This document shows, piece by piece, positions 42,001 through 49,105 of a stretch of 64,000 nucleotides of DNA. The stretch lies in assembly GCF_013122565.1 (NCBI RefSeq), contig NZ_CP053258.1; one strand, 5' to 3'. This DNA is from Escherichia coli (GTDB taxonomy: Bacteria > Pseudomonadota > Gammaproteobacteria > Enterobacterales > Enterobacteriaceae). Made by a program: the position numbers. Every line of letters starts with the position of its first letter. Positions within the stretch are counted from its first letter, which is position 1.

Positions 42001-45000
42001 TAGAGCGGATAAGATGCGTTTCCAGATTGACTTATCCTCACTAAAGGATAAAACTGATAATATCCCCTTAAGCGGATAAATTTGCTGTGGACGTATGACA
42101 TGATGAGCTTTCAGAAGATCTATAGCCCAACGCAATTGGCGAATGCAATGAAACTGGTTCGCCAGCAAAATGGCTGGACGCAGAGCGAGCTGGCGAAAAA
42201 AATCGGCATTAAGCAGGCGACAATTTCCAATTTCGAAAACAACCCTGACAATACCACGCTGACGACATTTTTTAAGATATTACAGTCGCTTGAACTCTCA
42301 ATAACGCTATGCGACACGAAAAACGCTGCGCCAGAATCAACTGAACAGCAAGATCTGGAGTGGTAATGCCTAAACTTGTCACGTGGATGAACAACCAGCG
42401 GGTAGGTGAGTTAACGAAGCTTGCCAACGGCGCGCACACCTTTAAGTATGCGCCGGAGTGGTTAGCCAACCGTTATGCAAGGCCGTTGTCACTTTCGCTG
42501 CCATTGCAGAGGGGGAATATCACCTCTGATGCCGTATTTAACTTCTTCGATAACCTGTTACCCGATAGCCCGATTGTACGTGACCGGATCGTAAAACGTT
42601 ATCATGCTAAATCCAGACAACCGTTTGATTTATTGTCAGAAATAGGGCGAGACAGCGTTGGTGCCGTGACGTTAATACCCGAAGACGAAACCGTAACGCG
42701 TCCGATAATGGCATGGGAAAAGCTGACTGAAGCCAAACTTGAAGAAGTATTAACGGCTTATAAAGCAGATATCCCGCTAGGCATGATTAGAGAAGAAAAT
42801 GACTTTCGCATCTCGGTTGCTGGCGCACAGGAGAAGACAGCACTGCTCAGAATAGGCAATGACTGGTGCATTCCGAAAGGAATAACGCCGACGACGCACA
42901 TCATTAAATTACCGATTGGGGAAATCAGGCAGCCCAATGCGACGCTCGATCTCAGCCAAAGCGTTGATAATGAGTATTACTGTCTGCTGCTGGCGAAAGA
43001 ACTTGGGTTGAATGTTCCGGACGCAGAAATCATTAAAGCGGGAAATGTGCGCGCGTTAGCGGTCGAACGTTTTGACAGGCGTTGGAATGCTGAGCGAACG
43101 GTTTTACTTCGCTTGCCACAGGAGGATATGTGTCAGACATTCGGTTTACCTTCATCGGTGAAATATGAATCAGATGGAGGCCCAGGCATCGCGCGGATCA
43201 TGGCTTTTTTGATGGGGTCCAGCGAGGCGCTGAAAGATCGCTATGATTTTATGAAGTTTCAAGTGTTCCAGTGGTTGATTGGCGCAACGGATGGCCATGC
43301 AAAAAACTTCTCCGTATTTATTCAGGCTGGCGGCAGTTATCGGCTCACACCATTTTACGACATCATTTCGGCATTTCCGGTCCTTGGCGGTACGGGAATA
43401 CACATCAGCGATCTCAAACTGGCAATGGGGCTTAACGCATCCAAAGGCAGAAAAACGGCAATCGATAAAATTTATCCGCGACATTTTCTGGCGACAGCAA
43501 AGATGCTGAAATTCCCGGAAGTGCAGATGCATGAAATACTAAGTGGCTTTGCCAGAATGATTCCGGCAGCACTGGATAACGTGAGGACTTCATTACCGAC
43601 AGATTTCCCGGAGAACGTGGTGACGGCAGTTGAAACCAATGTGTTGAGGATGCATGGACGGTTAAGCCGAGAATACGGTAGTAAGTGAGATATGGGGTTT
43701 GGTCGTTGTTAATGAGCACGAATCATGACCGCCAATGGCTGGATTCTCCCTTGATTTATGTTGGTGCGCATAATGTATATTATGTTAAATTGACTGCGGA
43801 AGTCCTTTACTTCACCATTCACTCTACATACAGATAAATCAATACGTTGTGATTTATGACTTCCCTCCCGTTTCTTTTGTTAGGTTCATTATAGGGAATT
43901 CAAGATATCTATGTTTGGAAGCTCCACGCAGTAGCAGCCGGTGCGGTGGCTCTCTATGCCCGCCCTGTCTTTCATCCGTTTGCCCGTCAACATAAAGGTA
44001 TTACCGCCTTGCCCGGGTGGATGTCCAGCCTGCAGGGAAGCCCGGTGACCCTCATCGGTAATGTATTCCCGCTTGTTGTCAGTCTGAACAGTGTTCTTTT
44101 GTAGTGGCCAAGTAATATTGGACACTACAGAAGTGAGGGCCGGCATATTATCTGAAGCTGTATTTTATCCCCAGCGCTCCGGAGATAGCATTGCTCCCGT
44201 GACCTCCTGCCTGATATGCGACTCCGCCATTCACTGACAGATTTTGAGTAATCACCCCATCAATACCTGTCTTTATCTCTCCCTGATTTCGGCCACCTGA
44301 CAACAACTGGCTGTCACCACTCATTTTAACACCAAATTCATGAGTGTTATGGATCCAATTTGCCTCTATATACGGACGGAACTCCCGCCCGGTATCCTTA
44401 TCCAGGGTGCTTTTCACATTCCAGGATGCACGAATACCTGCTTTTGTCTGAAGATTATTTTTCCCAGTGCCCTGTACCACAGTTCCGTTATCTTCCTGAT
44501 GTGTATCCGGAGTAACCCCCATCCAGATAGCCTGCAGATGAGGCTGTAACCAGAATTCACCTTTAATTCCCTCAGGTGACGTCCATGTATGCACATTCAG
44601 GTTATACCCTCCGCCCACGGAAGCGGTTAAACCATTCAGGTTATATTTTTCTTCTTCCAGCCCGTCGCCTTTCACTGATGCATTAAACCAGTTATATTGC
44701 ATCCAGGTTTCAGCAAAGAGGCCTGTTGCATTTGCCCCATTCTGATACCAGGTTCCGTATAACCCGGCCGAATAACCATCCAGTGTATTTCTGGCCCGTT
44801 TCTTACTCGTGTGGTTTATCGTTTTACCTTTTGCGTTTGCATAGCCACCCATAATGCCCAGGGTAAAGTCACCCAGTTTTTCAGCGTGGTATTTATAAAT
44901 GTCCCCTCCAAGTTGATTGATAAATTGATTGGTTGTTGTTTTATTTTGCCCATCACTAAGCTTACCAGAGGTTCTTCCGCCCGTAATCTTCATCCACACA

Positions 45001-48000: not shown

Positions 48001-49105
48001 TTGCCCATGCCAGCCACGATAAACCACTGGCTAAGCCGACAAAAAAGCTGGCATGTCGTAATAAATCCACCCGTTCCTGGAGAGGCAGCACTCCGGTAAA
48101 ATCTTCGGCCCCCCATGGAATATGATTCCAGACAAAGCTATTGCCTGTATGAGCATTGCGGTCAATACACAAAACCCGATACCCAAGTTTCTTTAAATGA
48201 CTAATCACTTCAGACCATCCAAGACCATTATTCCAGTGTTTCGCCTGTGCTGTAGACTGCACGGCAATACAGACATAAGGGTCAGGGATTTTCCTTTCAG
48301 CTGAAAGATTGAGTCGGGGTGGTTCTTCCTGAGGAGATACTCCCAGGATATATCCGGCATTACGATGAAAACCAACCAGACGGAAATCTACAGGCTGGTT
48401 ATCTGTATCTCCATTAAAAAACAAACCAATTCTGTACGTTGCATATGGTTTACCTTCATATTTATCCTGAGTTGCTGTAAACTTTATTTCCGGATAATTA
48501 TCTGAGAATAGTGTTACGAACTCTTCACTAACGGAGCATTCCAGTTTGCATTGATGTTTTATACGGAATTTTTCAGCGTAGTGAAACCATGCAATAATAT
48601 CTCCCAGCGTTCCTGTCGGAAATGATATTAAAACATGCTTACTCTTCAGGTTCATTACAGTGTCAAGGCAGGGGTGAACTTCTCCTTTTTTAAATGCCTG
48701 CACCCTAAACTTCACATAATATTTTTTTGTGCTTGTTACCCACCCTCCAGACGTATCGCATGAAAATAAAATATTTCCTGAATCATCATCAATGATATTA
48801 ACATGCCACTCGCCTTTCGGAAGCAAAACTCTTGCTCCATCATTAAAATCATACAGAATACCTTTATCTCCTTCTTGGGTTGGAGTTCCTGTTAATGATA
48901 CAAAAGCCATATGATTCTCTCCTGAATTATAAATTGTTCTTGGAGTAGCAATGCCTGATACGAATGGAGAAAGATGTTGTATATATTAGCGATATATCAT
49001 TCATCTTCTTGACGATTGAGAGAGGAAACTTTATTAACTATAATGTGATTTTAATTGTTATGAGTAAAATGGAACATATCTTTTTCTGAAAGATGAAAAC
49101 CATCA

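What the first reader, a model, noticed from the sequence alone, without database searches (positions are those of the whole stretch)
44148..48910. Chromosomal aah/aidA-like operon: heptosyltransferase plus glycosylated-type autotransporter adhesin
A two-gene minus-strand operon encodes an Aah/TibC-family autotransporter heptosyltransferase followed 14 nt later by an AIDA-I-like autotransporter with a ~19-aa repeat passenger. This pairing is the signature of O-heptosylated self-associating autotransporters (AIDA-I/Aah, TibA/TibC, EhaJ/EgtA), which mediate adhesion, autoaggregation and biofilm formation. It is absent from this position in K-12 (from memory), looks AT-rich by eye (not computed), and is flanked by an IS3 fragment, consistent with horizontal acquisition.
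Basis: partly seen in the sequence, partly recalled or inferred. Interest (0 to 1): 0.65.

Follow-up and report, generated by a model that had tools for sequence, protein, structure and literature searches.

The report
Chromosomal copy of AIDA-I adhesin operon
This is an intact copy of the well-known E. coli aah–aidA operon (a sugar-adding enzyme plus the AIDA-I adhesin it modifies); the system is ordinary, but here it sits on the chromosome, whereas every copy found in 5,426 complete E. coli genomes is on a plasmid.

Summary
Two minus-strand ORFs lie 14 nt apart: aah (47750-48910, 386 aa) and aidA (44148-47735, 1195 aa).

The pair is AIDA-I/Aah itself, not just AIDA-like. Both pass NCBI's specific models, and both exact proteins are already in NCBI under those names. 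AIDA-I is 93.5% identical to the crystallised AIDA-I C-terminal part and 96% to a plasmid allele. It lacks one block of 113 residues, about six 19-residue repeats. All tested functional residues are conserved in both proteins. dN/dS is 0.14 for aah and 0.22 for aidA.

The context is the unusual part:
- aah-like genes occur in 35 of 5,426 complete E. coli genomes, always on plasmids.
- Here a 5.0-kb plasmid-type module sits in a 14.9-kb chromosomal island between hipA and yneL, which K-12 lacks.
- The module is bracketed by two same-orientation ISEc31-like (IS3-family) ends.
- Six complete chromosomes carry the same island, with the operon destroyed by shared and nested deletions.

Verdict: a known system, apparently intact, in a rare chromosomal location. 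Expression and function are untested. Interest is low.

The parts
47750..48910 (-). aah: autotransporter adhesin heptosyltransferase (BAHT family), 386 aa
   Evidence: TIGR04414 scores 602 bits against a cut-off of 200. The alignment to TibC (PDB 4RAP) is ungapped with E 4e-196. D104, T220, K224, R280, W299, C333/336/352/364, F259, V260 and F362 are conserved; residue 294 is Ala (residue roles from PMC4358343). The exact protein is WP_171459376.1.
44148..47735 (-). aidA: AIDA-I autotransporter adhesin pre-protein, 1195 aa
   Evidence: NF033176 auto_AIDA-I scores 2438 bits against a cut-off of 1200. Pfam finds ESPR, AIDA repeats, AC_1 and the Autotransporter domain. Residues 748-1194 are 93.5% identical to PDB 4MEE. 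The exact protein is WP_171459375.1.
47589..47735 (-). Extended signal peptide (residues 1-49, ending ...GNAFA)
   Evidence: Pfam ESPR matches residues 1-28. The N-terminus aligns with other AIDA-I alleles. The cleavage point after AFA is inferred by homology.
45921..47588 (-). Passenger with imperfect 19-residue strand-loop-strand repeats (residues 50-605), the heptosylation target
   Evidence: Lag-19 identity is 0.327 against a shuffle maximum of 0.159. TIGR04415 gives 15 stretches. Pfam AIDA repeats span residues 51-605. Residues 50-600 are 24% Ser+Thr. One 113-residue in-frame gap after residue 368 separates it from the p48B2a allele.
45204..45521 (-). Autochaperone/junction (residues 739-844), including the autoprocessing site S754|A755 (codons 45471-45476) and D786, E805
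   Evidence: Pfam AC_1 E 1e-24. The KES|AGN, LTDRL and VNEGG motifs are conserved. Their equivalence to AIDA-I S846/A847, D878 and E897 rests on my memory of Charbonneau et al. 2009, a paper that is not held.
44220..44999 (-). 12-stranded beta-barrel translocator (residues 913-1172)
   Evidence: Pfam PF03797 matches model positions 1-254 of 255, E 3e-32. TIGR01414 E 5e-114. The alignment to 4MEE runs full length.
48911..49127 (-). aah upstream region (promoter and 5' UTR, with an AGGAG ribosome-binding site 8 nt before the ATG), carried in with the module
   Evidence: Window 48850-49127 is 98.2% identical to plasmid p48B2a, and the homology stops at 49127. Promoter positions are not mapped here; the consensus scan was uninformative.
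49128..49604 (-). ISEc31-like (IS3-family) remnant. Its IRR tip is at 49128, it has an internal 464-bp deletion, and the IRL side is missing
   Evidence: BLAST to an intact 1258-bp ISEc31 matches 49128-49209 to IS positions 1-82 and 49215-49604 to IS positions 547-937, at 87% identity. NF033516 hit.
44100..44125 (-). Solo IS3-family terminal repeat (23 of 26 identical to the ISEc31 IRR), in the same orientation as the end at 49128-49153
   Evidence: (family D4). An 18-mer with up to 3 mismatches is expected 0.05 times by chance in the window; it occurs twice, at the two module edges.
44126..44147 (-). Truncated aidA terminator: only the proximal arm and loop of the hairpin that is perfect in plasmid copies
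   Evidence: Junction comparison with L001, L006 and L007.
43791..58700 (.). 14.9-kb chromosomal island between hipA and yneL. It holds gene debris, the aidA-aah module, the IS remnant, a GPH transporter, a cellulase-family hydrolase, a LacI regulator and tcuRABC
   Evidence: BLAST against K-12 and LHM10-1. NCBIfam hits.

Best explanation
This is an intact, chromosomally integrated allele of the classic aah-aidA operon.

Proposed mechanism, from established work on AIDA-I/Aah and TibC:
1. Aah is an iron-finger, GT-B-type heptosyltransferase. In the cytoplasm it takes ADP-heptose from the LPS-core pathway and O-links heptose to Ser/Thr residues at the start of the loops of the 19-residue strand-loop-strand repeats of the AIDA-I pre-protein.
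2. AIDA-I is exported by Sec through its extended signal peptide.
3. Its C-terminal barrel inserts into the outer membrane.
4. The passenger is translocated and folds into a beta-helix on the autochaperone.
5. Autoprocessing at S754|A755 leaves the mature adhesin non-covalently bound to the barrel part.
6. At the surface it mediates diffuse adherence, autoaggregation and biofilm formation.

The operon reached the chromosome as a 5.0-kb plasmid-type module bracketed by two ISEc31-like right ends, inside a 14.9-kb island between hipA and yneL.

Shown here: gene integrity, family membership, conserved functional residues, purifying selection, the island and IS architecture, and the distribution. 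Inferred: expression, glycosylation and adhesion in this strain, and the exact IS-mediated route.
For: Identity:
- Both proteins pass the NCBIfam specific models well above cut-off.
- Aah aligns without gaps to TibC.
- The AIDA-I junction and barrel are 93.5% identical to PDB 4MEE. The whole protein is 96.0% identical to the p48B2a allele, and Aah is 93.5% identical to that plasmid's Aah.
- Both exact sequences are already named AIDA-I and O-heptosyltransferase in NCBI.

Integrity:
- The full domain set is present: ESPR, AIDA repeats, AC_1 and the barrel.
- There are no frameshifts or internal stops.
- All 12 TibC residues tested are identical: the catalytic base, the four sugar-binding residues, the four iron-binding cysteines and three thumb-contact residues. 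Mutagenesis showed the catalytic base, three of the sugar-binding residues and the cysteines to be required (PMC4358343).
- The cleavage-site and junction acidic residues are conserved.
- The 217 bp upstream of aah are 98% identical to the plasmid copy, and an AGGAG ribosome-binding site is present.
- dN/dS against p48B2a is 0.14 for aah and 0.22 for aidA.

The chromosomal location is real:
- The same junctions occur in independent assemblies. SRR11451224 is 100% identical and GCA_018578885.1 is 99.78% identical over 15.9 kb.
- Six complete chromosomes keep remnants at the same site that are 99.4-100% identical to the window.

Functional literature: PMC3835316, PMC6555100 and PMC4358343.
Against: No expression or protein data exist for this locus.
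- All six RefSeq chromosomes that carry the island have lost the operon through deletions. This suggests the chromosomal copy is often dispensable or costly.
- The solo IS end truncates the aidA terminator hairpin.
- The passenger is 113 residues shorter than in the nearest allele and 93 shorter than in the common 1288-aa alleles.
- The protein ends in ...YSFR rather than the usual terminal Phe, although a common 1288-aa allele group seen on 83 contigs shares this ending.
- Aah residue 294 is Ala, not the Ser of prototype AAH. Most database Aah alleles also have Ala.
- The dN/dS value integrates the whole divergence from the plasmid allele. It does not prove that selection has acted since the chromosomal insertion.
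Confidence: 0.85

Rival explanations
1. The locus is a silent relic. The ORFs happen still to be intact, but the operon is not expressed, or the shortened adhesin is not functional, and the locus is on its way to the deletions seen in related chromosomes.
For: All six complete chromosomes with the island share a 3.3-kb deletion that removes the AIDA-I N-terminus, aah and its promoter. They also carry further nested losses. The flanking IS is itself decayed. The aidA terminator is truncated. The passenger lacks about six repeats. The operon's low GC (44.7%, aah 41.6%) is typical of H-NS-silenced foreign DNA; that link is an inference.
Against: A 4.76-kb two-gene unit carries no stop codon or frameshift. 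Every tested functional residue is kept. The native upstream region is 98% conserved. dN/dS is 0.14-0.22. The exact protein recurs in about four independent assemblies. Natural AIDA-I alleles already differ in repeat number, at 1195, 1287, 1288 and 1307 aa.
Confidence: 0.13
2. It is a different glycosylated autotransporter pair (EhaJ/EgtA-type or TibA/TibC-type) and not AIDA-I/Aah.
For: Aah is 69% identical to TibC. The passenger also matches the TibA structure 4Q1Q at E 1e-45. The family shares the operon layout.
Against: The AIDA-I-specific NCBIfam model scores 2438 bits, twice its cut-off. The protein clusters at 90% identity with named AIDA-I proteins. It is 93.5% identical to crystallised AIDA-I, whereas its matches to TibA and Ag43 are far weaker. 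EhaJ belongs to a different phylogenetic group, group 8 against group 4 for AIDA-I (PMC9289746).
Confidence: 0.01
3. It is an assembly artefact: a plasmid-borne aah-aidA module wrongly joined into a chromosomal contig.
For: All 44 aah places in complete E. coli genomes are on plasmids. The module is flanked by repeated IS sequence, a classic cause of misjoins.
Against: Identical junctions occur in an independent read-set assembly and in another genome. Six finished chromosomes retain aidA fragments at exactly this site, 99.4-100% identical to the window. The flanking IS is a unique, internally deleted remnant and not a multicopy intact IS.
Confidence: 0.01

Closest known systems
AIDA-I / Aah of diffusely adhering E. 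coli 2787 and of porcine ETEC/STEC plasmids
   Same: The operon order is the same (aah then aidA). The architecture is the same: ESPR, 19-residue repeats, autochaperone and barrel. The junction and barrel are 93.5% identical to PDB 4MEE. The protein is 96.0% identical to the p48B2a allele and 84.4% to the pP1525 allele. Aah is 87-93.5% identical to plasmid Aah. Both proteins pass the family-specific NCBIfam models.
   Different: The location is chromosomal; there are no chromosomal copies in 5,426 complete genomes. The passenger is shorter by one 113-residue block of about six repeats. aah ends 6 codons early at a TAG, so the two genes are 14 nt apart instead of sharing the overlapping ATGA seen in the plasmid alleles. 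The terminator is truncated by a solo IS end.
TibC / TibA of ETEC H10407
   Same: Both belong to the BAHT family. The alignment is ungapped and 69.4% identical, with identical residues at all tested catalytic, sugar-binding, iron-finger and thumb positions. Aah and TibC are reported to be functionally interchangeable (PMC3835316; PMC4358343).
   Different: [quoted passage not shown] The adhesin is AIDA-I and not TibA; the match to TibA 4Q1Q is only E 1e-45.
EhaJ / EgtA of EHEC/EPEC
   Same: A glycosyltransferase gene lies next to an AIDA-type autotransporter. This similarity is from my own knowledge of Easton et al. 2011, a paper that is not held.
   Different: EhaJ falls in autotransporter group 8 with MisL, ShdA and YfaL, whereas AIDA-I falls in group 4, the self-associating autotransporters (PMC9289746).
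IS-bounded transposition units (for example ISEcp1 plus an adjacent gene plus a surrogate right end)
   Same: On the coding strand the order is IS remnant, right end, cargo (aah-aidA), then a second right end in the same orientation.
   Different: The IS belongs to the IS3 family, which is not known to me for one-ended transposition. The second end is a near-perfect genuine IRR (23 of 26), not a weak surrogate. The IRL side is lost, so target-site duplications cannot be checked. An equally good explanation is a composite of two direct IS copies followed by a deletion.

Membership tests
BAHT (Aah/TibC autotransporter heptosyltransferases) | Full-length match to the family equivalog model TIGR04414 above its curated cut-off | tested here: met
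   602.4 bits against a cut-off of 200, covering residues 9-379 and model positions 3-373 of 374.
BAHT (Aah/TibC autotransporter heptosyltransferases) | Catalytic base Asp-110 and sugar-binding residues Thr-226, Lys-230, Arg-286 and Trp-305 (TibC numbering) | tested here: met
   D104, T220, K224, R280 and W299 are present. Residue roles are from PMC4358343.
BAHT (Aah/TibC autotransporter heptosyltransferases) | Four-cysteine iron finger (Cys-339/342/358/370) and beta-hairpin thumb contacts (Phe-265, Val-266, Phe-368) needed for the dodecamer | tested here: met
   C333, C336, C352, C364, F259, V260 and F362 are present.
BAHT (Aah/TibC autotransporter heptosyltransferases) | Encoded next to an autotransporter substrate that carries strand-loop-strand repeats | tested here: met
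   aidA starts 14 nt downstream. TIGR04415 gives 15 stretches.
BAHT (Aah/TibC autotransporter heptosyltransferases) | Heptosyltransferase activity, iron binding and dodecamer assembly | not testable with these tools
   This needs biochemistry.
AIDA-I (self-associating autotransporter adhesin) | Match to the AIDA-I-specific model NF033176 above its cut-off | tested here: met
   2437.9 bits against a cut-off of 1200. The protein clusters at 90% identity with proteins named AIDA-I.
AIDA-I (self-associating autotransporter adhesin) | Extended signal peptide, imperfect 19-residue repeats, autochaperone and a 12-stranded barrel | tested here: met
   Pfam finds ESPR, AIDA repeats, AC_1 and PF03797. 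Lag-19 periodicity is above every shuffle. The alignment to 4MEE is full length.
AIDA-I (self-associating autotransporter adhesin) | Autoprocessing site Ser846|Ala847 with junction acidic residues Asp878 and Glu897 | tested here: met
   S754|A755, D786 and E805 lie in identical local motifs. The residue numbers come from my memory of Charbonneau et al. 2009; the paper is not held.
AIDA-I (self-associating autotransporter adhesin) | Plasmid location (usual, but not defining) | tested here: not met
   The operon is chromosomal, between hipA and yneL. All 44 other places in complete genomes are on plasmids.
AIDA-I (self-associating autotransporter adhesin) | Heptosylation-dependent adherence, autoaggregation and biofilm formation | not testable with these tools
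   This needs expression and cell assays.
EhaJ/EgtA | Sequence identity to EhaJ and EgtA | not tested
   No EhaJ or EgtA sequence was available, and the paper PMC3108271 is not held. Indirect evidence argues against membership, because EhaJ falls in a different phylogenetic group.

The most novel reading that the evidence does not exclude
The arrangement 'ISEc31 remnant, right end, aah-aidA, second right end' could be the footprint of an IS3-family element moving adjacent cargo as one unit, by one-ended or read-through transposition from a plasmid to the chromosome. The resulting six-repeat-shorter AIDA-I would then be an expressed, domesticated adhesin in a non-pathotype lineage. The six deletion derivatives would form a natural series showing how such an adhesin is lost.
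Probability: 0.12. Interest if true: 0.4.

Novelty: already known. Interest (0 to 1): 0.18.

Why it matters
AIDA-I is a textbook glycosylated adhesin and a marker used to type diffusely adhering and porcine diarrhoeagenic E. coli. It is normally treated as plasmid-borne. A stable chromosomal copy has three practical consequences:
- PCR or genome screens for aidA/aah can be positive in strains that have no virulence plasmid.
- The trait can be inherited vertically.
- The intact form and its deletion derivatives give a small natural series for asking whether the adhesin is maintained or shed once it is off its plasmid.

None of this changes what is known about how the system works.

Tried and rejected
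- Tandem Repeats Finder on aidA found nothing. The repeats are detectable only at protein level.
- The sigma-70 and terminator consensus scan gave no more sites than shuffles, and no convincing minus-strand promoter upstream of aah. I therefore relied on 98% conservation of the upstream region with the plasmid copy.
- The primary papers on EhaJ/EgtA (PMC3108271) and on AIDA-I autoprocessing (PMC2719369) are not held. A search for S846/A847 found nothing relevant.
- Literature searches for a chromosomal aidA locus found no description. The library is limited, so this is not proof that none exists.
- I suspected the Ala at Aah position 294 and the C-terminal 'FR' of AIDA-I were peculiarities of this copy. 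Both are common in database alleles.
- I tested whether NZ_LR883050.1 shows the empty insertion site, because its homology stops at the solo IS end. It is an unrelated island, and window 43890-44100 is only debris of one of its genes.
- I first read the 26-nt flanking direct repeat as a possible att site or target duplication. It is a pair of IS3-family terminal repeats.
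Full report
**1. Observation**

One is 386 aa (47750..48910). The other is 1195 aa (44148..47735) and starts 14 nt after the first one's stop codon.

The passenger's 19-residue periodicity is real. Identity at lag 19 is 0.327 in residues 50-560, and no lag in any of 500 shuffles exceeded 0.159. At DNA level the copies are too diverged for Tandem Repeats Finder.

The operon is 44.7% GC (aah 41.6%). The window as a whole is 48.6% and the rest of the island is 52.4%, so 'AT-rich' is correct but modest.

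**2. Identity**

The first protein scores 602 bits on the equivalog model TIGR04414 hepto_Aah_TibC (cut-off 200). The second scores 2438 bits on NF033176 auto_AIDA-I (cut-off 1200).

Against solved structures:
- The transferase aligns without gaps to TibC (4RAP) at E 4e-196 and 69.4% identity.
- Residues 748-1194 of the autotransporter align end to end with the AIDA-I junction and barrel structure 4MEE at 93.5% identity.

Pfam gives the complete architecture: ESPR at residues 1-28, AIDA repeats at 51-605, autochaperone AC_1 at 739-844 and the Autotransporter barrel at 913-1172.

Both exact sequences are already in NCBI as WP_171459375.1 'autotransporter adhesin AIDA-I' and WP_171459376.1 'autotransporter strand-loop-strand O-heptosyltransferase'. 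They sit on a 4.82-Mb contig. This is therefore AIDA-I/Aah itself, not a new AIDA-like pair.

**3. Integrity**

The TibC structure paper (PMC4358343) identifies these residues:
- the catalytic base Asp-110;
- the sugar-binding residues Thr-226, Lys-230, Arg-286 and Trp-305;
- the four iron-binding cysteines 339, 342, 358 and 370;
- the thumb contacts Phe-265, Val-266 and Phe-368.

With the constant offset of 6 residues, all twelve are identical in the window's enzyme. [quoted passage not shown] Here it is Ala-294, as in most database Aah alleles. The enzyme therefore lacks the proline that restricts TibC to ADP-D,D-heptose.

In AIDA-I the local motifs around the autoprocessing site and the two junction acidic residues are conserved as S754|A755, D786 and E805. 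The correspondence to S846/A847, D878 and E897 is from my memory of Charbonneau et al. 2009.

The protein ends in ...YSFR. The extra Arg after the usual terminal Phe is shared with a common 1288-aa allele group seen on 83 contigs.

**4. Allele differences**

The protein is 89-91% identical to the common 1287- and 1288-aa alleles and lacks 93 residues relative to them. It is 96.0% identical to the 1307-aa allele of plasmid p48B2a.

From the p48B2a allele it differs by one clean in-frame gap of 113 residues, about six beta-helix rungs. The same '...LSGG.QNVSSGGSAI...' motif sits at both edges of the gap, which points to unequal recombination between repeats.

aah ends six codons early at a TAG. 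This replaces the overlapping ATGA stop/start of the plasmid alleles with a 14-nt spacer.

dN/dS against p48B2a is 0.14 for aah and 0.22 for aidA.

**5. Context**

The window's gene order is lsr genes, an intact 1806-aa ECSE_1600-family autotransporter, hipBA, then the island, then yneL and a fimbrial operon.

K-12 homology ends at 43790 and resumes at 58701. A 14.9-kb island therefore replaces about 200 bp of K-12 sequence.

Inside the island, only 44128-49127 (5.0 kb) matches plasmid aah-aidA regions, at about 95.5% identity.

Across 5,426 complete E. coli genomes, aah-like DNA occurs in 35 genomes at 44 places. All 44 places are on plasmids and none is on a chromosome.

The chromosomal placement is not an artefact:
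- An independent read-set assembly is 100% identical and another genome is 99.78% identical over 15.9 kb, junctions included.
- Six complete chromosomes carry the same island at 99.8% identity.

**6. IS architecture**

Plasmid homology stops at 49127. At 49128 begins an ISEc31-like IS3-family remnant that is 87% identical to an intact 1258-bp copy. The remnant has an internal 464-bp deletion and has lost its IRL side. Its terminal repeat, with TG tip, is at 49128-49153.

A second 26-nt copy of that terminal repeat lies at 44100-44125, just beyond the other edge of the module and in the same orientation. It matches the ISEc31 IRR at 23 of 26 positions. This solo end cuts through the perfect terminator hairpin that follows aidA in three plasmid copies.

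Read on the coding strand, the order is:
1. IS remnant;
2. right end;
3. aah promoter, aah and aidA;
4. second right end.

Two routes could produce this. One is a composite of two direct IS copies followed by a deletion. The other is movement of the IS plus its cargo as a single unit. The lost IRL prevents a target-duplication test, so the route stays open.

Window 43890-44100 is debris of an unrelated island gene.

**7. Decay elsewhere**

The six complete chromosomes show a nested series of losses:
- All six share the deletion 46051-49339. It removes the first 560 or so residues of AIDA-I, all of aah and its promoter.
- Five share the deletion 44006-44771.
- LHM10-1 has a further 292-bp loss.
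- ET201 has an IS1 insertion and a larger loss.

Their surviving aidA pieces are 99.4-100% identical to the window. The window therefore holds the intact ancestor of a locus that has eroded in every complete genome that carries it. This is the main reason for some doubt about present-day function.

**8. Mechanism and verdict**

Published work gives the mechanism, and the sequence here is fully compatible with it (PMC4358343; PMC3835316; PMC6555100):
- Cytoplasmic Aah transfers heptose from ADP-heptose to Ser/Thr residues in the strand-loop-strand repeats.
- Glycosylation stabilises AIDA-I and is needed for adherence.
- The adhesin is secreted by the type Va route, is autoprocessed and stays at the cell surface.
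- At the surface it drives diffuse adherence, autoaggregation and biofilm formation.

The system is already known and already correctly annotated. What is uncommon is the chromosomal, IS-bracketed location and the shorter passenger. I found no description of this locus in the held literature. Interest is low.

Noticed in passing
window 36457-41877 (+): An intact 1806-aa ECSE_1600-family autotransporter (NF011422, 4118 bits; strong MisL-like barrel) lies two genes from aidA. Its K-12 counterpart yneO is a pseudogene, and it is frameshifted or split in ET201 and GCA_018578885.1. This strain therefore has two large intact autotransporters flanking hipBA.
   Followed up: partly
window 49656-58412: The rest of the island encodes a GPH-family sugar symporter, a cellulase-family glycosylhydrolase (no NCBIfam hit), a LacI regulator and tcuRABC for tricarballylate use. 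The full stretch occurs in only 6 of 5,426 complete genomes. The tcu part matches large plasmids at 97.8% identity, including plasmids of AIDA-positive porcine ETEC.
   Followed up: partly
window 59278-63653 (+): FimA-like major subunit, FimC-like chaperone and 883-aa usher genes are intact here. K-12 has only a truncated usher (ydeT), and most of the six island-bearing genomes have this operon broken by IS3 or IS1.
   Followed up: partly
window 41801-44005 compared with 49340-59466: Against LHM10-1, CP52E and UTME-7 the hipBA side is only 97.2% identical, whereas the island is 99.8-100% identical. In wlxctx60 and VE-T9 the island's left neighbour is not hipBA at all; it is a retron/ABC-three-component system in one and restriction/IS30 genes in the other. 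The island has apparently moved between backgrounds by recombination.
   Followed up: no
window 43890-44100 (+): This is debris of a gene that NZ_LR883050.1 annotates as a 1037-aa 'chromate transporter', at 91.6% identity over 166 nt. It is cut off exactly at the tip of the solo IS end. The overlapping 85-aa ORF at 43889-44146 on the minus strand has no family hit and is probably spurious.
   Followed up: partly
window 48029-48031 (Aah residue 294): The residue reported to set ADP-heptose stereoselectivity is Ala here and in most database Aah alleles. It is neither the Ser of prototype AAH nor the Pro of TibC. Donor preference for the Ala variants is untested, as far as I could find.
   Followed up: partly
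window 44148-44153 (aidA 3' end): AIDA-I ends in ...YSFR (TTC AGA TAA) instead of ...YSF (TTC TGA). This puts an Arg after the terminal aromatic residue that usually ends outer-membrane beta-barrel proteins. The same ending occurs in a common 1288-aa allele group seen on 83 contigs, so it is presumably tolerated.
   Followed up: partly
window 46540-46703 and 46936-47099: A 164-nt direct repeat (79% identical, 396 nt apart) lies inside the aidA repeat region. It is a ready substrate for further in-frame gain or loss of repeat blocks.
   Followed up: no
L001 13340-13370 (plasmid p48B2a) compared with window 49128: In plasmid p48B2a a different IS3-family element begins TGTAGAGGGG... within 1 nt of the position upstream of aah where the ISEc31-like end sits in the window. 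In pP1525 an IS3-family fragment also lies upstream of aah. An IS3-family neighbour on that side seems to be a constant companion of the module.
   Followed up: no
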